Shown here one piece after another: positions 1-5,505 of a stretch of DNA of 6,365 nucleotides. Every line of letters begins with the position of its first letter. The first letter of the stretch is position 1. The DNA is from a virus (lineage: Duplodnaviria; Heunggongvirae; Uroviricota; Caudoviricetes), in the IMG/VR virus record IMGVR_UViG_2698536552_000010. One strand, written 5' to 3'. The translations under genes were made by a program, and so were the position numbers. Below the pieces are notes generated by a model. That model was not told the origin of the DNA, did not search any database, and saw only the letters and a list, made by a program, of their open reading frames with translations.

Positions 1-88
1 TGCATGGATAAACTACAAGACGAGATATAAACCACCCTGCATTTAAATAAACAATAAACAACATCAGAAAAATAATTCTGCTCTATGG

Positions 89-115
89 TTTACATTCAAA
101 AATATCATTTATACT
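89..115 (+). promoter_or_regulatory. Candidate sigma70 promoter for the 156-491 ORF (-35 TTTACA 89-94, -10 TATACT 110-115, 15-nt spacer)
   Basis: Hexamer matches read directly; spacer is short and AT-rich DNA gives many chance matches. Confidence 0.25.
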
Positions 116-155
116 TTTCAGAACATCACCAGCAAGGCATAAACAAGGAAACTAA

Positions 156-491
156 ATGAAGTGGATTGTGATTGATACAGTTATCCAGCCATCATGCGGA
201 ATATCTTTTTCAGTCATATGGAGTAAAATAAAATTAATAATCTGGTATCAATCGGATGCTTTCTTACCTCCTGAAAGTATATTTACACTGACTCACACAG
301 GCATCATGCTCAATAACAAAGTGCTACCTGTAACCATTTACAACGTAGTACCATTCAATAAAACATTCTGGAATTCAATCAAAAATAGCCAGGAATGCCC
401 TACAAATACAGATAACGTATTGAATGAATGCTTTAATAACCGTTGCACTCTGCAAATATGTCCTTATGGACTAAAACAACAAAGTCCATAA
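156..491 (+). CDS. Hypothetical protein, 111 aa, 6 Cys, in AT-rich DNA; convergent to the prophage late genes
   Basis: ATG at 156 preceded by SD AAGGA (145-149) at 6-nt spacing; 111-codon open frame in roughly 35% GC DNA (hand count), where chance ORFs of this length are uncommon; no family recognised. Confidence 0.45.
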
Positions 492-494
492 GGA
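461..494. repeat. Perfect 12-bp inverted repeat (TCCTTATGGACT / AGTCCATAAGGA) with 10-nt loop, spanning the stop codon of the 156-491 ORF
   Basis: Read directly: 461-472 is the reverse complement of 483-494; stop TAA at 489-491. Confidence 0.8.
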
Positions 495-504
495 GTTTAC
501 TCAC

Positions 505-547
505 ATCTGACAAAATCAATATAAACAGCCCCTCCGGAGAGGGGCTG
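505..547 (-). terminator. Rho-independent terminator for minus-strand transcription (GC stem 526-534/539-547, loop CGGA, U-tract on minus strand)
   Basis: Perfect 9-bp GC-rich stem CAGCCCCTC/GAGGGGCTG; minus strand downstream reads TTTATATTGATTTTG. Confidence 0.5.
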
Positions 548-938
548 GAGAGTGGCGCTATGTGCCATTGCATGGTGCCGGGTGCCTCCCGGTGAATTCA
601 GTACCAGCACCTGAATCCGCGATTATCCCATATACCTACTCGCTGATTGCCCCTCCGCACAGGGGGATTCACCATGCCAGTTTCTTTTAACAAACTCCCC
701 GCAAACCAGACAACAGTCAACCGCCTGAATTGTGAAGTATTTAAAAATTTCTCCCGCTAACTGATACCCGGCTAACAGTCTGGCGTTTTCTTTTTCAGCA
801 ACGGGAAAGCAACAACCACCACACCCGCCACCAGCACACCGTCAGCCAGCACTGACATTATCCGGCTGCTGCAATGCCATTCACAAAAACAGTAAGCAAT
901 CACTTTTTACCGTAACAGGTGATAATCCAGATATGTAT

Positions 939-1292
939 CTACCCCAGATGAGTAATCCGAAGTTCATCCATACCACAGGTCCTGGCTATTCTGTTGTACT
1001 CCTGAACAAGAGCAAATAATTCTGAATTAGCAACCATGAACTCATCGCAAACCCTCTGTATAGCATCACTATTCAGAATAATAACGTCTCTTCCCGAAAG
1101 ACGATCAGGAGTACAGAACAAAACTGTCAAACGGCTGAAGGCCTTTGCTCGTGCTGCATTGACTATATCAATACGCTGCCTAAGGATGAAACACCCCGAC
1201 GCCTCATCAATATTCACTCTACCCACACCATATGAATGATAAATATTTAATGCTGAAAAAACCATTAGACCGTATAACAAACACTCAATCAA
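939..1292 (-). CDS. Hypothetical cargo protein (117 codons from TTG at 1292; 108 aa from first ATG at 1265) in the stx-equivalent slot downstream of Q and the tRNA
   Basis: Protein-like composition; 6 of 11 Arg codons are AGA/AGG, the codons read by the adjacent tRNA-Arg(UCU); no clear SD, start uncertain; family not recognised. Confidence 0.5.
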   Translation of the reverse strand: MIECLLYGLMVFSALNIYHSYGVGRVNIDEASGCFILRQRIDIVNAARAKAFSRLTVLFCTPDRLSGRDVIILNSDAIQRVCDEFMVANSELFALVQEYNRIARTCGMDELRITHLG

Positions 1293-1402
1293 TACTTAAC
1301 AGAACTTTTATTTTTGACAAACATAAAATATTTTCAACAATATCCTGAGCCAGGTATATTTCAGTATAAGGCTCTGCCGGAAGGAATCTGGAAGAATGAA
1401 TA

Positions 1403-1479
1403 TGGCGCGCTGTACTGGATTCGAACCAGTGACCGATTGCTTAGAAGGCAATTGCTCTGTCCGGCTGAGCTAACAACGC
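1403..1479 (-). tRNA. tRNA-Arg (anticodon UCU), 77 nt with encoded CCA
   Basis: Minus strand folds as a cloverleaf: acceptor GCGTTGT/ACAGCGC, D stem GCTC/GAGC, anticodon stem ATTGC/GCAAT with loop CTTCTAA, T arm ACTGG-TTCGAAT-CCAGT, discriminator G, CCA. Phage-borne tRNA-Arg downstream of Q is known from Stx-type lambdoid phages. Confidence 0.9.
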
Positions 1480-1519
1480 TGAATACCGATAATGGACCGC
1501 CATCGGGGACCCGCCCCCN

Positions 1520-1768
1520 NNNNNNNNNNNNNNNNNNNNNNNNNNNNNNNNNNNNNNNNNNNNNNNNNNNNNNNNNNNNNNNNNNNNNNNNNNNNNNNNN
1601 NNNNNNNNNNNNNNNNNNNNNNNNNNNNNNNNNNNNNNNNNNNNNNNNNNNNNNNNNNNNNNNNNNNNNNNNNNNNNNNNNNNNNNNNNNNNNNNNNNNN
1701 NNNNNNNNNNNNNNNNNNNNNNNNNNNNNNNNNNNNNNNNNNNNNNNNNNNNNNNNNNNNNNNNNNNN
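1520..1768. other. Run of 249 N (gap or masked sequence); position and size would fit one to three further phage tRNA genes
   Basis: N run read directly; the tRNA suggestion is inference from the ileZ-argN-argO arrangement in Stx phages. Confidence 0.9.
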
Positions 1769-1900: not shown

Positions 1901-1926
1901 ATAAAAAACCCGCTCGGCGGCGGGTT
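1901..1926 (-). terminator. Rho-independent terminator on minus strand, candidate tR' (Q-dependent readthrough site)
   Basis: Minus strand reads AACCCGC-CGCCGA-GCGGGTT followed by TTTTTTAT, about 40-65 nt downstream of the candidate PR' -10. Confidence 0.55.
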
Positions 1927-1973
1927 GTAGAAACTCTTCTAACGTCAGGCATAAAACGCCCATCGTTATAACG

Positions 1974-2001
1974 AATTTACCACAGATTCCGGAAAAATCA
2001 A
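1974..2001 (-). promoter_or_regulatory. Candidate late promoter PR' (minus strand -35 TTGATT 2001-1996, 16-nt spacer, -10 TAAATT 1979-1974) just downstream of the Q stop
   Basis: Hexamers read directly; position matches the lambdoid Q-PR'-tR' arrangement. Confidence 0.4.
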
Positions 2002-2026
2002 CCTTGTTACCTAGTTACCTTTTTTA
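1991..2026. repeat. Left copy of a direct repeat flanking the second N run (shares cggaaaaatcaacc + tagttacctttttta with 2295-2323, plus an extra 8 bp)
   Basis: Read directly; the extra 8 bp (TAACAAGG on the minus strand) creates the TAA stop after ...KKVTR. Confidence 0.85.
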
Positions 2027-3125
2027 NNNNNNNNNNNNNNNNNNNNNNNNNNNNNNNNNNNNNNNNNNNNNNNNNNNNNNNNNNNNNNNNNNNNNNNNNN
2101 NNNNNNNNNNNNNNNNNNNNNNNNNNNNNNNNNNNNNNNNNNNNNNNNNNNNNNNNNNNNNNNNNNNNNNNNNNNNNNNNNNNNNNNNNNNNNNNNNNNN
2201 NNNNNNNNNNNNNNNNNNNNNNNNNNNNNNNNNNNNNNNNNNNNNNNNNNNNNNNNNNNNNNNNNNNNNNNNNNNNNNNNNNNNNNNNNNNNNNCGGAAA
2301 AATCAACCTAGTTACCTTTTTTAACTGCCGCTCAGCCCATGCTTCTTCAATATCAAACCGAGTCACCAGCGCATCATAGAATTTCTTAACTGTTTTTTCC
2401 CATGACGCGCGTGTTATCTGGTTTGTCACCTCGCATATAGCATTAAATGCCTCCGTTGATGGTAGTCTTTCATAGCCACGACCACCACAACGCTGGCAGT
2501 CTCTGATAACAGGCATACCACGTTTTACCGACTCTTCACGATGAATGGCGACACCACGCCCACGGCAATCCTTACAGGCGGTGGAAACCTCACCCTTTCC
2601 GCCACACTCCGGACAGGCAACTTTTACCACCTCCCTGACTTTTTTCCATTCTTCCCAGTAAGACGGATACACACCTTTCGTACACTTTGCCCATACCGGC
2701 GGCTTACCATCCGGATACTGGATCTTGTTTGTAAAAACCTCGCTTTCAATAAATTTTTTTCCGTGACAGCAGGGGCACTGTTTTTTGCTCGCCGCGCTAC
2801 GGGCATAATCTTCAAACGCATACGAAGCCATAATACGCATCACTGCCGGTTTTATTTCTGCCGGGAGTTTTCTTAACGCCGCCACGCGATCACACCGACT
2901 GAGTGCATATTCTGTCAGCAATTCTGTTGCCCGCTCTCTGTCATTCATACTAATGCCCATTTTCCCAAGGAACGCAGAAACCCCCATCTCAGCCCGATTC
3001 TGTGTCATGCCCTGCGCGGCCATCACATCAGTGATACTCAGCGCATCTTTCGACGTTGAGGCCGATGCATCAGTCAGGCCGGGGGATTTTGGGGAGTAGT
3101 ATTTCGGTAAATCTTCCAGTTTCAT
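2007..3125 (-). CDS. quuQ: Late antiterminator Q (Qin quuQ-like), with four DnaJ-like Cys-rich repeats; 3' end crosses the N run, about 273 aa if it ends at ...KKVTR
   Basis: Position directly downstream of rusA with ATGA start/stop overlap and upstream of PR'/tR'; motifs CPCCHG, CPECGGKG, CKDCRGRG, CQRCGGRG; N-terminus MKLEDLPKYYSPKSP resembles Qin QuuQ as I recall it. Only 2295-3125 is directly read. Confidence 0.8.
   Translation of the reverse strand: MKLEDLPKYYSPKSPGLTDASASTSKDALSITDVMAAQGMTQNRAEMGVSAFLGKMGISMNDRERATELLTEYALSRCDRVAALRKLPAEIKPAVMRIMASYAFEDYARSAASKKQCPCCHGKKFIESEVFTNKIQYPDGKPPVWAKCTKGVYPSYWEEWKKVREVVKVACPECGGKGEVSTACKDCRGRGVAIHREESVKRGMPVIRDCQRCGGRGYERLPSTEAFNAICEVTNQITRASWEKTVKKFYDALVTRFDIEEAWAERQLKKVTRLIFPXXXXXXXXXXXXXXXXXXXXXXXXXXXXXXXXXXXXXXXXXXXXXXXXXXXXXXXXXXXXXXXXXXXXXXXXXXXXXXXXXXXXXXXXXXKKVTR
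2027..2294. other. Run of 268 N (gap or masked sequence) inside or at the 3' end of the Q gene
   Basis: N run read directly; the two flanking repeat copies are offset by 297 bp, keeping the Q frame. Confidence 0.9.
2295..2323. repeat. Right copy of the direct repeat flanking the second N run
   Basis: cggaaaaatcaacctagttacctttttta matches 1991-2026 except for the 8-bp indel. Confidence 0.85.
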
Positions 3126-3502
3126 TTTTTGACCTGCCCTTCAAGCATTATGGGATAAATCTTCACCCCCAGACGTCCACCAGATACTGGCTGAGCACGA
3201 ACGATATTGATTTCATCAAACTGCTCATCGTCCATTAGCAACCCCGCATGCGTCAGCGCATCCAGCGGCGCTTTCAGAATATTGTCCAGGTCACGGCGGC
3301 GCTTATCCGGTGGTTCTGCAATAATTTTTATTGCCAACCTTCCGGACAGGCTTAATTTCAGCCGCTGCTGGCGAACAATAAGCGCCACTGCCCGGCGATA
3401 ACGCTCCCCGGCTTTTGATACAAAATATGTGCTGCCACGACGACGCCAGTAAGTGTTCACCGTCGGCGGGTAAGGTAAAACAAATTCTATGCGCTCGGTC
3501 AT
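3122..3502 (-). CDS. rusA: Crossover junction endodeoxyribonuclease RusA (Holliday junction resolvase), 126 aa
   Basis: Contains the RusA signature PPDKRRRDLDNILKAPLDAL and N-terminal LPYPPTVNTYW; ATG immediately follows the upstream TAA (TAAATG) and its stop overlaps the Q start (ATGA). Confidence 0.9.
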   Translation of the reverse strand: MTERIEFVLPYPPTVNTYWRRRGSTYFVSKAGERYRRAVALIVRQQRLKLSLSGRLAIKIIAEPPDKRRRDLDNILKAPLDALTHAGLLMDDEQFDEINIVRAQPVSGGRLGVKIYPIMLEGQVKK

Positions 3503-4561
3503 TTATGCTTTCCACTTCAGAACACCCGAATTTCTCGCGTGCATTAAAAAACGAATCAGCAACAACAGCTGACTGCCGTGTTTCTCTTCAAAATCTTTTA
3601 CTCCGGCATGTAGTTCGTTACGGCATTTACGGCATAACGGAATAACAAACAAATCATCAGCCTTTGTTCCCATCCCTCCCAGTCCATGACCAATGATGTG
3701 ATGCGGATCATCTGCCTGATTGCCACACGTCATGCATTTCTGCGTTTTTACCCAGCGCGTGTATACAGGCATCTCTTCCCGTTGTGATTTCTGGCGCTGG
3801 AGATACTGAGCCGGTGACTCCGGATCAACGGCAATGCTGACCACCGTCTTTTCCTGTGGTGGGTTCTGTTGCTGGTGGACGTGAGGCAGTAACGCAATAT
3901 TTTTTGTGCGCTGCTTCAGTATGCTGGTGGCTGTCTGCTCTCCCGGTATGATGTCGCTTTCACTGTACACAGAGCGAATTTTTTCCGCACGCAACCCCAG
4001 CGAACGACGTAATACCGCTTCCGGTAGCGCGTCCGCCACCTGATTGCGGACCGCCCACCAGGATAATTCAGCCAGAGATAATTCACGCTCCTGCGTACCG
4101 CTTATTGCGTGACCGATGACGTCAATCATCCATGCTGACAGGTTTTGATGAGCAAGTTGCTCGAGTGATTCGGATGTCTGGTCACGCAGCTGGTTGTCGC
4201 AGTGCCAGCACAACACCATTGCGCCGGTACCATAACGGTGAATGACGGTTTCGCTGTGATGATAATCGCCGTGTGGCCACTGGCAGGATTTAATATGGCG
4301 CAACAGCCAGTCAGACAATGCACCAGCACCACCAGCAGCACGAATCACCCGTGCGTTACTGAAAAACGGCAGCAATGTTTTGTCTTCCACCAGCGGCTGG
4401 CGAGCGGCAGGAACGACCCCGGACGGCAGATTACGCATGCTTTTTGGTTCCGGCTCCACCAGTATTCTGCCGTTATGGAATGCTGACATTGATTCACGGC
4501 CTGGCTTAACGATAACCAGACCGAGTTCCGGTACCAGAACAGGTCGAAGTAATACCCGCAC
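3503..4561 (-). CDS. ydfU: DUF968-family prophage protein (ydfU-like), 352 aa, GTG start, C-terminal HNH-like Cys/His motif
   Basis: Long minus-strand ORF with GGAGG 4 nt upstream of GTG at 4561; C-terminal CMTCG...PHHI...CRKCRNELH; sits between rem-like and rusA as in Qin. Confidence 0.8.
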   Translation of the reverse strand: MRVLLRPVLVPELGLVIVKPGRESMSAFHNGRILVEPEPKSMRNLPSGVVPAARQPLVEDKTLLPFFSNARVIRAAGGAGALSDWLLRHIKSCQWPHGDYHHSETVIHRYGTGAMVLCWHCDNQLRDQTSESLEQLAHQNLSAWMIDVIGHAISGTQERELSLAELSWWAVRNQVADALPEAVLRRSLGLRAEKIRSVYSESDIIPGEQTATSILKQRTKNIALLPHVHQQQNPPQEKTVVSIAVDPESPAQYLQRQKSQREEMPVYTRWVKTQKCMTCGNQADDPHHIIGHGLGGMGTKADDLFVIPLCRKCRNELHAGVKDFEEKHGSQLLLLIRFLMHARNSGVLKWKA

Positions 4562-5138: not shown

Positions 5139-5294
5139 TTACTCCTCAGGTTCGTAAGCTGTGAAGACAGCGACCTCCGTCTGGCCGGTTCGAATTCGTA
5201 CCTCGCAGAGGTCTTTCCTCGTTACCAGTGCCGTCACTATGACGGTTAAACAGATGACGATCAGGGCGATTAACATCGCCTTTTGCTGCTTCAT
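5139..5294 (-). CDS. hokD: Hok-family type I toxin HokD (RelF), 51 aa
   Basis: Translation MKQQKAMLIALIVICLTVIVTALVTRKDLCEVRIRTGQTEVAVFTAYEPEE matches the HokD sequence as I recall it; SD AAGGAG 9 nt upstream of the internal ATG at 5294. Confidence 0.9.
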   Translation of the reverse strand: MKQQKAMLIALIVICLTVIVTALVTRKDLCEVRIRTGQTEVAVFTAYEPEE

Positions 5295-5505
5295 AGCCTG
5301 CTTCTCCTTGCCTTTCGGCACGTAAGAGGCTAACCTAGATTTGCCGTTCATAGATTGAGCCTCAGATTAATGTTAAGCGTCTTGCCGGACGCGTAATGTT
5401 AACTGGGGCTTTTCTCTATCTGCCTTTTGGTGTTCATGCCTGAGACAGATAGCCTCAAGCACCCGCTGCAATTCTACTTAACTCTCCTTTTCCCGCAAAC
5501 CGTTT

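What the first reader, a model, noticed from the sequence alone, without database searches (positions are those of the whole stretch)
939..1479. Unknown cargo gene in the stx-equivalent position, Q-dependent and rich in AGA/AGG codons
In Stx phages the order is Q - PR' - tR' - tRNAs (ileZ, argN, argO) - stxAB. Here Q, a candidate PR'/tR' and a tRNA-Arg(UCU) are followed on the same strand by an unrecognised 108-117 codon ORF instead of stx. Six of its 11 Arg codons are AGA/AGG, rare in E. coli and decoded by the adjacent tRNA. That implies a late-expressed moron co-adapted with the phage tRNA, which could be a toxin, effector or defence/anti-defence factor.
Basis: partly seen in the sequence, partly recalled or inferred. 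Interest (0 to 1): 0.65.

Follow-up and report, generated by a model that had tools for sequence, protein, structure and literature searches.

The report
Unannotated small gene in stx slot
A real but uncharacterised small gene (about 92 amino acids, predicted two-helix hairpin protein) sits in an E. coli prophage exactly where related phages carry Shiga toxin genes; it is conserved and under selection, yet standard annotation skips it and its function is unknown.

Summary
On the minus strand, Q, a candidate PR'/tR', tRNA-Arg(UCU) (1403-1479) and an open frame (939-1292) follow each other. The frame has 11 Arg codons, 6 of them AGA/AGG.

The ORF is a genuine gene. Three diverged E. coli variants (60-64% aa identity) keep exactly 279 nt from a shared GTG (window 1217) to the stop, with no indels. 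dN/dS is about 0.26.

The conserved protein is 92 aa, not 108-117. The upstream codons carry frameshifting indels in relatives, and all remote homologues (91-106 aa) start at the GTG position.

In Stx2c phage 2851, stx2AB replaces precisely window 736-1389, so the 'stx slot' claim is correct.

The family is tiny (21 clusters among 1.84 billion representatives) and confined to Enterobacteriaceae mobile elements. PHROGs lists it as 'unknown function'. It has no Pfam, NCBIfam, PADLOC or PDB relative.

AlphaFold predicts a soluble helical hairpin (pLDDT 88.6).

tRNA co-adaptation is not supported. The conserved Arg positions use CGN, and the AGA/AGG codons sit at variable sites.

Nothing suggests a toxin. 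I read it as an ordinary late-region moron of unknown function, probably a small binding protein. It occurs in about 24% of complete E. coli genomes.

The parts
939..1217 (-). Conserved coding sequence of the cargo gene ('ORF92'): GTG start at 1217-1215, stop TAG at 941-939. The product is 92 aa, 10.4 kDa, pI 5.7.
   Evidence: Types A, B and C all keep exactly 279 nt from GTGAATATTGAT to the stop. dN/dS is 0.26-0.27. phrog_2873 matches at E 5.6e-58. Remote homologues align from this start. PGAP annotates the type-C copy as the 92-aa protein WP_001017777.1.
1218..1292 (-). In-frame upstream extension (TTG 1292, ATG 1265) that makes the 117- and 108-codon versions. It is probably 5' leader, not coding.
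   Evidence: A 4-nt indel between type-B copies (L003 against L005/L009) shifts the frame. Type C has no homology here beyond about 30 nt. None of the upstream starts has a Shine-Dalgarno sequence. A -10-like hexamer (TATCAT at 1241-1236; TATAAT in type B) is conserved in all three types, but the -35 is poor.
1403..1479 (-). tRNA-Arg, anticodon UCU (argO-like phage tRNA).
   Evidence: ARAGORN. Rfam tRNA 68 bits. 92% identical, including flanks, to the tRNA-Arg(AGA) that precedes stx2A in phage 2851.
772..903 (-). Second small cargo gene: a 43-aa DUF3927 membrane peptide, 35 nt downstream of ORF92.
   Evidence: PGAP names it 'DUF3927 family protein' WP_000562553.1 in E. coli 042. phrog_1470 matches at E 7.8e-13. 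It lies within the segment replaced by stx2AB.
517..706 (-). STnc100/PasD-type prophage sRNA ending in an intrinsic terminator (hairpin 547-526). It forms the 3' border of the moron slot.
   Evidence: Rfam RF02076 at 132 bits, E 2e-30. Terminator scan. The same element follows stx2B in phage 2851 and follows the cargo in STEC1585.
1907..1926 (-). Candidate tR' terminator (stem plus TTTTTTAT).
   Evidence: Terminator scan. Conserved in E. coli 042 and L015 downstream of Q. Weak isrK-like Rfam hit at 1903-1974, 18.9 bits, below the gathering score.
1974..2001 (-). Candidate late promoter PR': TTGATT (2001-1996), 16-nt spacer, TGg-TAAATT (1982-1974). It would give an RNA of about 67 nt ending at tR'.
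   Evidence: Read directly from the sequence. It matches 8 of 12 consensus positions, so the automatic scan did not report it. It lies 6 nt after a Q-type stop codon. This is an inference.
2325..3125 (-). Antiterminator Q gene. Its 3' end runs into the N mask at 2028-2294.
   Evidence: PF03589 Antiterm at E 1.5e-53, covering the full profile.
1520..1768 (.). Masked stretch (N). Related prophages carry tRNA-Ile (anticodon CAU) at the corresponding place.
   Evidence: E. coli 042 has tRNA-Ile about 100 nt upstream of the tRNA-Arg. L015 has a tRNA(cat) in the same relative position.
156..491 (+). iraM homologue (anti-adaptor), convergent with the late operon. It is a neighbouring cargo gene just beyond the STnc100 element; an iraM-like region also lies after stx2B in phage 2851.
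   Evidence: NCBIfam NF007393 at 162 bits. PGAP names it 'anti-adapter protein IraM'.

Best explanation
Window 939-1217(-) is a genuine accessory ('moron') gene of a lambdoid prophage. It encodes a 92-aa soluble, mildly acidic protein predicted to fold as a long two-helix hairpin joined by a conserved TPDR loop.

Together with the 43-aa DUF3927 peptide it fills the exchangeable slot between the phage tRNAs and the STnc100 sRNA/terminator. Other phages carry stx2AB in that slot.

Shown: it is coding, under purifying selection, has a conserved length and start, is predicted to be a hairpin, and occupies the slot.

Inferred:
1. It is transcribed when Q-modified RNA polymerase reads from PR' through tR' and the tRNAs on prophage induction, as for stx2 (about 0.7). 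Low-level transcription from a weak local promoter is possible (about 0.4).
2. It has no catalytic-looking features, so it most likely acts stoichiometrically by binding another macromolecule, probably as an oligomeric helical bundle. It would be a small modulator of a host regulator or of a competing mobile element, not a toxin (about 0.4).
3. Its AGA/AGG codons reflect the low-GC, foreign composition of the cassette and not tuning to the tRNA.
For: Coding and selection:
- Exactly 279 nt with no indels across variants at 67-72% nt identity; codon-position differences 24/23/43; dN/dS 0.26-0.27; Fisher p about 1e-6.
- Homology between variants ends right after the stop codon. It reaches about 75 nt upstream of the GTG between types A and B, and about 30 nt in type C.

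Family:
- phrog_2873 at E 3.8e-70, and phrog_4827 for 10 of 11 members.
- An exhaustive HMMER search finds only 21 clusters. The full-length members are 91-122 aa and none is a fusion.

Prevalence: 1314 of 5426 complete E. coli genomes carry it, 1179 of them at 99% identity or more.

Slot: comparison with phage 2851. STnc100 borders the slot in the window, in 2851 and in STEC1585. Phage vB_EcoS-640R1 has the same module without the ORF.

Conserved position in remote members: the Citrobacter homologue lies between Q and the holins with DUF3927. The P0030 homologue lies 1 kb after Q. Others are single-gene inserts in tail-gene blocks and on IncF plasmids.

Structure and composition:
- AlphaFold2 pLDDT 83.8 and 88.6; helices 3-34 and 50-81.
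- No TM segment.
- GC 0.41-0.44, against about 0.50 for Q, rusA and DUF968.

Transcription: same strand as Q; no terminator-like site between the tRNA-Arg and the ORF; only a weak terminator-like site (3 G-C pairs, 1103-1085) inside the ORF before the 547-526 hairpin.
Against: There are no expression data of any kind. No convincing promoter or Shine-Dalgarno sequence precedes the GTG in this variant (GGGTAGA-GTG, against AGGAGTAGA-GTG in type C), so translation could be poor or could start elsewhere.

PGAP does not call the gene in more than 1100 genomes.

Q's 3' end is disturbed by a duplication around a masked stretch, so Q function in this particular prophage is not assured. The ORF is absent from some otherwise near-identical phages, so it is dispensable for phage growth.
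Confidence: 0.55

Rival explanations
1. A 108-117-aa late-expressed toxin, effector or defence factor whose AGA/AGG-rich coding sequence is co-adapted to the adjacent phage tRNA-Arg(UCU), which limits or boosts its translation.
For: 6 of 11 (or 5 of 10) Arg codons are AGA/AGG. That is far above a host average of about 6% (the 6% figure is my own knowledge; binomial p 1.5e-4). It is the highest fraction among window genes with at least 10 Arg codons. The tRNA lies 186 nt upstream of the GTG on the same strand. Type A has more AGA/AGG codons than types B and C.
Against: - The conserved Arg positions 15, 23, 29 and 39 use CGT/CGA/CGC in all variants. The AGA/AGG codons lie at variable positions, one mutation away from Lys, Gly or Ser codons.
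- 5/10 is not unusual for 41-44% GC foreign DNA (p 0.18 against a nominal expectation of 30%, my own assumption) and is not different from variants B+C (p 0.22).
- Type C has no tRNA nearby. Type B's neighbouring tRNA-Arg is UCG. The Citrobacter context has tRNA-Thr.
- The N-terminal extension is not conserved.
- No signal peptide or TM segment, no toxin homology, and no consistent defence homology.
Confidence: 0.1
2. The gene works in the lysogen, not in lytic growth. It would be transcribed from its own weak promoter and stopped at the STnc100 terminator. It would act as a small connector or anti-regulator of host gene control, like neighbouring cargo such as IraM or the Psr/YdeO-like AraC regulators.
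For: - A conserved -10-like hexamer lies about 20 nt before the GTG in all three variants (TATCAT/TATAAT).
- A strong terminator lies downstream.
- The cassette is low in GC, as is typical of morons.
- Relatives sit beside regulatory cargo: a YdeO/GadX-like AraC gene in type B, a PapB-regulated fimbrial operon on plasmids, and iraM here.
- Relatives occur as single-gene inserts in unrelated phage modules.
Against: No -35 element; the promoter scan finds nothing at that spot. There is no homology to any known connector, anti-adaptor, Hha, PerC or H-NS-like family, even at Pfam E up to 10. The association with regulators is loose: O157 psr loci appear to lack the gene, since only 80 genomes carry type B.
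Confidence: 0.25
3. ORF92 and the DUF3927 peptide form a two-gene unit. For example, a membrane peptide with a soluble partner could mediate exclusion of phages or colicins, or influence lysis timing.
For: The two genes are 35 nt apart on one strand and are swapped together against stx2AB. DUF3927 also follows the homologue in Citrobacter, directly upstream of the holins. PHROGs annotates phrog_1470 as 'TciB-like inhibition of cell division or resistance to colicin'.
Against: In Citrobacter a 141-aa gene separates them. The plasmid and tail-region relatives have no DUF3927. In type B I did not verify that DUF3927 is intact: the 45-aa ORF called there looks unrelated. DUF3927 occurs widely without ORF92, for example in L008.
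Confidence: 0.12
4. The ORF is not a gene. It is a chance open frame in an AT-rich spacer, a decaying pseudogene, or the sequence is conserved for an RNA or antisense function.
For: PGAP and RAST do not call it. 3.5% of shuffles reach this ORF length. The Shine-Dalgarno sequence is weak. An antisense 67-aa ORF exists at 1036-1239(+).
Against: - There is a codon-position substitution pattern, and dN/dS is 0.26 in this frame alone. The only other frame with low dN/dS is the antisense frame that shares wobble positions, and it has stops in types A and B.
- Zero indels over 279 nt at about 70% identity.
- Homologues at 22-41% identity of the same length exist in other genera and elements.
- No Rfam hit lies over the ORF.
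- The predicted fold is confident.
Confidence: 0.04

Closest known systems
stx2AB locus of Stx2-converting lambdoid phages (e.g. phage 2851, 933W)
   Same: Same slot. It lies downstream of Q, PR', tR' and the ileZ/arg tRNAs, upstream of an STnc100-type sRNA/terminator, an iraM-like region and the lysis genes. The flanks are homologous at 92% and 70% identity. Transcription by Q read-through is therefore expected, as is established for stx2 (my own knowledge, plus PMC7547250 as listed).
   Different: The cargo is unrelated: a 92-aa cytoplasmic helical hairpin plus a 43-aa peptide, against a secreted AB5 toxin. There is no signal peptide and no toxin homology.
PHROG families phrog_2873 and phrog_4827 (unknown function); RefSeq hypothetical proteins such as WP_001017777.1 and WP_079938455.1
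   Same: Direct sequence membership. phrog_2873 matches at E 3.8e-70 over its whole 108-position profile. All 11 diverse members hit it, and 10 of 11 hit phrog_4827.
   Different: The PHROG model includes 16 N-terminal residues that the comparative data here indicate are not conserved as coding. Neither family has a known function.
Lambdoid-phage 'morons' at the PR' insertion site (Juhala et al. 2000 concept, as described in PMC4104026)
   Same: Extra DNA between conserved late-region landmarks, present in some related phages and absent in others. GC is lower than in the neighbours. A terminator and sRNA follow it, matching the 'moron CDS + convergent sRNA' layout of PMC4104026.
   Different: A dedicated promoter, which is part of the classical definition, could not be demonstrated. 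No AgvB or AsxR anti-sRNA was detected here.
Small helical phage or island-encoded modulators (IraM/IraP anti-adaptors, Hha, PerC/Pch, Rop, prefoldin-like hairpins)
   Different: No sequence relationship. Pfam at E up to 10 gives no consistent hit, and identity to the fold hits is 2-14%. The resemblance is a generic helical hairpin, so it is only a lead for 'works like' and no evidence of membership.

Membership tests
Protein-coding gene (as opposed to a chance ORF) | Excess of synonymous over non-synonymous change in the proposed frame | tested here: met
   dN/dS is 0.27, 0.26 and 0.26 for A/B, A/C and B/C. Fisher p is about 1e-6 for each pair.
Protein-coding gene (as opposed to a chance ORF) | Reading frame and length preserved in diverged relatives | tested here: met
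   279 nt in types A, B and C, with no indels or stops. The alignable remote homologues are 91-106 aa.
Protein-coding gene (as opposed to a chance ORF) | Evidence of translation (Shine-Dalgarno sequence, Ribo-seq, protein) | tested here: inconclusive
   The Shine-Dalgarno sequence is good in type C (AGGAG, 4 nt before the GTG) but weak in the window (GGGTAGA). No expression data were available.
PHROG 2873 | Significant full-length HMM match | tested here: met
   E 3.8e-70, profile positions 1-108 of 108. The 92-aa core matches positions 17-108 at E 5.6e-58.
Lambdoid late-region moron | Inserted between conserved phage landmarks; present or absent among close relatives | tested here: met
   Replaced by stx2AB in phage 2851 and absent from vB_EcoS-640R1, with conserved flanks in both.
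Lambdoid late-region moron | Nucleotide composition different from neighbouring phage genes | tested here: met
   GC is 0.41 (117-codon version) or 0.44 (core), against 0.50-0.52 for Q, rusA and DUF968.
Lambdoid late-region moron | Own promoter and own terminator | tested here: inconclusive
   A terminator is present at 547-526. Upstream there is only a conserved -10-like hexamer and no -35.
Q-dependent late gene (like stx2) | Same strand as, and downstream of, Q, PR' and tR' with no Q-resistant block; induced with Q | tested here: inconclusive
   The position and strand criteria are met, and no terminator-like site lies between the tRNA-Arg and the ORF. Induction cannot be tested with these tools.
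Cargo co-adapted to the phage tRNA-Arg(UCU) | AGA/AGG used at conserved, functionally required Arg positions, and enriched relative to homologues that lack the tRNA | tested here: not met
   The conserved Arg positions use CGN in all types. The AGA/AGG codons lie at variable sites. A 5/10 against B+C 4/17 gives p 0.22.
Secreted toxin or effector (Stx-like) | Signal peptide or secretion signal, and homology to toxin or effector families | tested here: not met
   The maximum 19-residue Kyte-Doolittle value is 0.94. No Pfam, NCBIfam or PDB sequence hit.
Known anti-phage defence system component (PADLOC) | HMM match to a PADLOC model | tested here: not met
   The window protein has no match. One of 11 members gives a weak HEC-06 hit at E 0.009.
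Prefoldin / Rop-type helical hairpin proteins | Specific structural and sequence similarity beyond a generic two-helix hairpin; defined oligomeric assembly | tested here: inconclusive

The most novel reading that the evidence does not exclude
ORF92 could be the founding member of a new class of small helical-hairpin proteins carried by Enterobacteriaceae phages and plasmids. Such a protein would bind and neutralise a specific host or competitor component, for example an anti-defence factor, a superinfection-exclusion factor or an anti-regulator. It would be delivered from the same Q-controlled slot that delivers Shiga toxin, in about a quarter of E. coli strains, including ST131 and EAEC 042.
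Probability: 0.25. Interest if true: 0.6.

Novelty: new member of a known kind. Interest (0 to 1): 0.35.

Why it matters
The slot between the Q-controlled late promoter and the lysis genes is where lambdoid phages carry their medically most important cargo: Stx, Psr regulators, anti-sRNAs and NanS-p.

This analysis shows that about 24% of complete E. coli genomes carry a conserved small gene under purifying selection in that region. These include ST131, EAEC 042 and ETEC lineages. RefSeq's pipeline leaves the commonest variant unannotated.

That gives a concrete, cheap target for annotation repair and for functional tests such as induction, tagging, partner identification, and exclusion or regulatory phenotypes.

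The finding also shows that rare-codon richness next to a phage tRNA is not in itself evidence of co-adaptation.

As it stands, this is one more hypothetical moron and not a surprise for specialists.

Tried and rejected
Homology searches with no informative result:
- Pfam (E up to 10), NCBIfam, PADLOC and PDB sequence searches gave nothing consistent.
- PHROGs gave only 'unknown function' families.
- Source names for more than 200 cluster members are almost all 'hypothetical protein' (the few others look spurious or mis-clustered).

Structure searches:
- The afdb50 library was unavailable.

Searches that failed or added little:
- The search for related loci failed with the broad alignment because no block was conserved enough. 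The narrower alignment found only E. coli, one mis-binned MAG contig and Citrobacter braakii.
- The phage collection holds the ORF in a single record, mEp460_ev081, where RAST annotated only a short antisense ORF.

Ideas rejected:
- The antisense ORF 1036-1239(+) as the real gene. It has stops in the relatives and no family hits.
- The TTG 1292 and ATG 1265 starts. The frame is not conserved upstream of the GTG.
- A remnant of the AraC/Psr gene upstream of the window ORF. Homology to type B starts only about 75 nt before the GTG.
- A K-12 counterpart next to iraM. There is none; only iraM is shared, at 70% identity.
- An AgvB or AsxR anti-sRNA in the window. There is no Rfam hit at E up to 1.

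Literature: searches on prophage AraC regulators, anti-sRNAs and STnc100 gave context for the slot but nothing on this protein.
Full report
**Context.** The window is a piece of an E. coli lambdoid prophage whose genes run on the minus strand. In order they are:
- hok (5139-5351);
- a DUF968 gene (3503-4561);
- rusA (3122-3502);
- antiterminator Q (2325-3125, running into an N mask);
- an intergenic stretch;
- a second N mask (1520-1768);
- tRNA-Arg(UCU) at 1403-1479;
- the ORF in question (939-1292);
- a 43-aa DUF3927 gene (772-903);
- a strong hairpin terminator (547-526).

A convergent iraM homologue lies on the plus strand at 156-491. Window 1-1518 is 99.6% identical to E. coli 042. There PGAP annotates IraM, DUF3927, tRNA-Arg and tRNA-Ile, but nothing over the ORF.

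**Checking the observation.** The ORF is 117 codons from TTG 1292, or 108 from ATG 1265. It has 11 Arg codons, of which 3 are AGA and 3 are AGG.

A terminator-like hairpin with a T-run lies at 1926-1907. Read directly, TTGATT-16 nt-TGgTAAATT at 2001-1974 is a plausible extended -10 late promoter. It would give an RNA of about 67 nt ending at that terminator. A sub-threshold isrK-like Rfam hit covers 1903-1974.

ORF length alone is only marginally unusual: 3.5% of dinucleotide shuffles of 736-1402 reach it.

**Is it a gene?** Yes. The ORF is present in 1314 of 5426 complete E. coli genomes, at 99% identity or more in 1179 of them. There are three diverged variants:
- Type A: the window, 042, phage mEp460, ST131 strains.
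- Type B: 80 genomes, mostly non-O157 STEC.
- Type C: for example strain EC581, where PGAP annotates it as the 92-aa protein WP_001017777.1.

All three keep exactly 279 nt from a shared GTGAATATTGAT to the stop codon, with no indel, at 67-72% nucleotide and 60-64% protein identity. Differences by codon position are 24/23/43, 19/19/39 and 24/18/40. Nei-Gojobori dN/dS is 0.27, 0.26 and 0.26, and Fisher p is about 1e-6 for each pair. Other frames give a ratio near 1 or contain stops. The exception is the antisense frame that shares wobble positions, and it has stops in types A and B. Homology between the variants ends immediately after the stop codon. It extends about 75 nt upstream of the GTG between types A and B, and about 30 nt in type C.

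**Where does it start?** Upstream of the GTG, type-B copies differ by a 4-nt indel that shifts the frame. The common type-B protein is 92 aa (P0080, on at least 1000 contigs). Type C shares no sequence there. Remote homologues of 91-106 aa all begin at or within a few residues of this position. The conserved product is therefore 92 aa (window 939-1217), 10.4 kDa, pI 5.7.

In the window the GTG is preceded by a weak Shine-Dalgarno-like GGGTAGA. Type C has AGGAG. The 108- and 117-codon versions are gene-caller extensions.

**The family.** A word-indexed search of 5.8 billion proteins found only E. coli and Shigella relatives. An exhaustive HMMER profile search of 1.84 billion representatives found 21 clusters at E of 1e-3 or better, all 35-122 aa and none a fusion.

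PHROGs holds the family as phrog_2873 (E 3.8e-70), with phrog_4827 as a distant relative. Both are listed as 'unknown function'. There is no Pfam, NCBIfam or PDB-sequence relative, and no consistent PADLOC match.

Contexts of remote members:
- Citrobacter braakii: Q ... gene - 141-aa gene - DUF3927 - holins - endolysin.
- An E. coli phage contig: hok - DUF1367 - YbcO - Q - tRNA - gene.
- Single-gene inserts inside tail-gene blocks of other phages.
- IncF plasmids, next to PapB-regulated fimbrial operons.

This is the distribution of a self-contained accessory gene of mobile elements.

**The stx slot.** In Stx2c phage 2851, window 1390-1513 (tRNA-Arg plus flank) matches the tRNA-Arg(AGA) preceding stx2A at 92% identity. 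Window 42-735 matches the region just after stx2B at 70% identity. So window 736-1389 (ORF92 plus DUF3927) and stx2AB are alternative fillings of one slot.

The 3' edge of the slot is an STnc100/PasD-type sRNA (Rfam 132 bits at 517-706) that ends in the 547-526 terminator. The same element follows stx2B in phage 2851. It also follows the cargo genes, in four copies, in the type-B STEC prophage. This matches the published 'moron CDS followed by sRNAs' layout 3' of PR' (PMC4104026; STnc100/PasD).

Phage vB_EcoS-640R1 has the same module but lacks window 872-1437. It therefore lacks the whole ORF, its upstream spacer and the 3' half of the tRNA-Arg, which shows the gene is dispensable.

In type B the gene lies about 93 nt after a YdeO/GadX-like AraC gene of the Psr/PatE kind. 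O157 psr loci do not appear to carry it.

**Structure.** AlphaFold2 gives a confident two-helix hairpin with both a 7-row and an 11-row alignment (pLDDT 83.8 and 88.6, pTM 0.72 and 0.75). The helices span residues 3-34 and 50-81. They are joined by the conserved TPDR-containing loop, and the C-terminal tail is less confident.

**The rare-codon argument.** The 92-codon core has 5 AGA/AGG among 10 Arg codons. Type B has 2/9, type C 2/8, and the others 1/4 to 5/6. The Arg positions conserved in all variants (15, 23, 29, 39) use CGT/CGA/CGC everywhere. The window's AGA/AGG codons fall where other variants have L, Q/K, N/K or G/S, or, at one position, Arg in type B and Glu in type C.

Type C has no tRNA nearby. 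Type B's adjacent tRNA-Arg is UCG. The Citrobacter context has tRNA-Thr. The excess in type A is not significant against B+C (p 0.22) or against a 30% expectation that I assumed for low-GC foreign DNA (p 0.18). It is significant only against a host average of about 6%, a figure from my own knowledge. The codon bias is best read as a composition effect: GC is 0.41-0.44, against about 0.50 in the neighbouring genes.

**How it most likely works.**
- Shown: a conserved, selected 92-aa coding sequence in the exchangeable late-region slot, on the Q strand, with no terminator-like site between the tRNA-Arg and the ORF.
- Inferred: on induction, Q-modified polymerase from PR' reads through tR' and the tRNAs into ORF92 and DUF3927, and on through the STnc100 terminator. 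This is by analogy with stx2, whose Q/PR' dependence is established knowledge.
- A conserved -10-like hexamer (TATCAT at 1241-1236; TATAAT in type B) leaves room for weak autonomous transcription ending at the STnc100 terminator.
- The protein most likely acts by binding a partner. Its company points loosely to modulation of host regulation or of inter-element competition. That company is IraM here, a Psr-like AraC regulator in type B, PapB-regulated fimbriae on plasmids, and DUF3927 and TolA-like genes in related prophages. No specific target can be named.

**Verdict.** The length, the tRNA co-adaptation and the toxin/effector suggestions are not supported.

It is a new member of a known kind, a lambdoid moron of unknown function. 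The family is already catalogued as a hypothetical protein. It is notable mainly for its prevalence and for being missed by RefSeq annotation.

Noticed in passing
window 517-706 (-), hairpin 547-526: A full-length STnc100/PasD-type prophage sRNA (Rfam RF02076, 132 bits) ends in the terminator that closes the cargo cassette. The same element follows stx2B in phage 2851 and occurs four times around the cargo genes in STEC1585 (L005). It looks like the conserved 3' anchor of the moron slot. PGAP instead annotates a pseudo 'hypothetical protein' on the opposite strand (562-687).
   Followed up: partly
window 156-491 (+): A prophage-borne iraM homologue (NCBIfam NF007393, 162 bits; 70% nt identity to K-12 iraM) is convergent with the late operon. 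A 70%-identical iraM-like region also lies just after stx2B in Stx2c and Stx2a phages, where most records leave it unannotated.
   Followed up: partly
window 1990-2026 and 2295-2325, flanking the N mask 2028-2294: The 3' end of Q plus the -35 of the candidate PR' is present twice as a direct repeat on either side of a masked 267-nt stretch. The copy attached to Q lacks 8 nt, including the TAA stop, so the Q frame runs on into the mask. This is either a duplication or an insertion at the Q/PR' junction. Its effect on Q or PR' function is unknown.
   Followed up: partly
window 1520-1768 (masked): In E. coli 042 and ECMA0423 the equivalent place holds tRNA-Ile (anticodon CAU, ileZ-like) about 100 nt upstream of the tRNA-Arg. 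The window is about 200 nt longer than those relatives between the tRNA-Arg flank and the tR' region. Window 1769-2002 matches the region just downstream of Q in strain fS10a.
   Followed up: partly
window 939-1292; E. coli RefSeq genomes: PGAP lists no feature over the type-A ORF in any of the complete genomes sampled. By contrast, the type-C copy is annotated by PGAP as a 92-aa hypothetical protein, and 92-aa type-B proteins are deposited in NCBI. This is a systematic annotation gap for the commonest variant.
   Followed up: yes
L005 6164-6889 and L003 164-889 (type-B context): A 241-aa YdeO/GadX-like AraC regulator (Psr/PatE kind) sits about 93 nt upstream of the type-B copy in non-O157 STEC prophages. 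It lies between a TolA-C-terminal-like gene and the NanS-p esterase. O157 strains appear not to carry the small gene.
   Followed up: partly
L027 7001-7276, L028 7001-7276 (IncF plasmids); L019/L020 6001-6294; L025 105-425: Distant paralogues (22-34% identity) occur on pig-associated IncF plasmids beside PapB-regulated chaperone-usher fimbrial operons. Others occur as single-gene inserts within tail-gene blocks of unrelated phages. A convergent 70-71-aa hypothetical gene accompanies the plasmid copies.
   Followed up: partly
window 1903-1974 (-): A weak isrK-like match (18.9 bits, below the gathering score) covers the stretch between the candidate PR' and tR'. This is consistent with a short terminated late-promoter RNA of the StxS/IsrK kind.
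   Followed up: no
window 772-903 (-): The 43-aa DUF3927 peptide has one hydrophobic helix, and PHROGs labels its family 'TciB-like inhibition of cell division or resistance to colicin'. It travels with ORF92 in E. coli type A and in Citrobacter, but also occurs alone elsewhere.
   Followed up: partly
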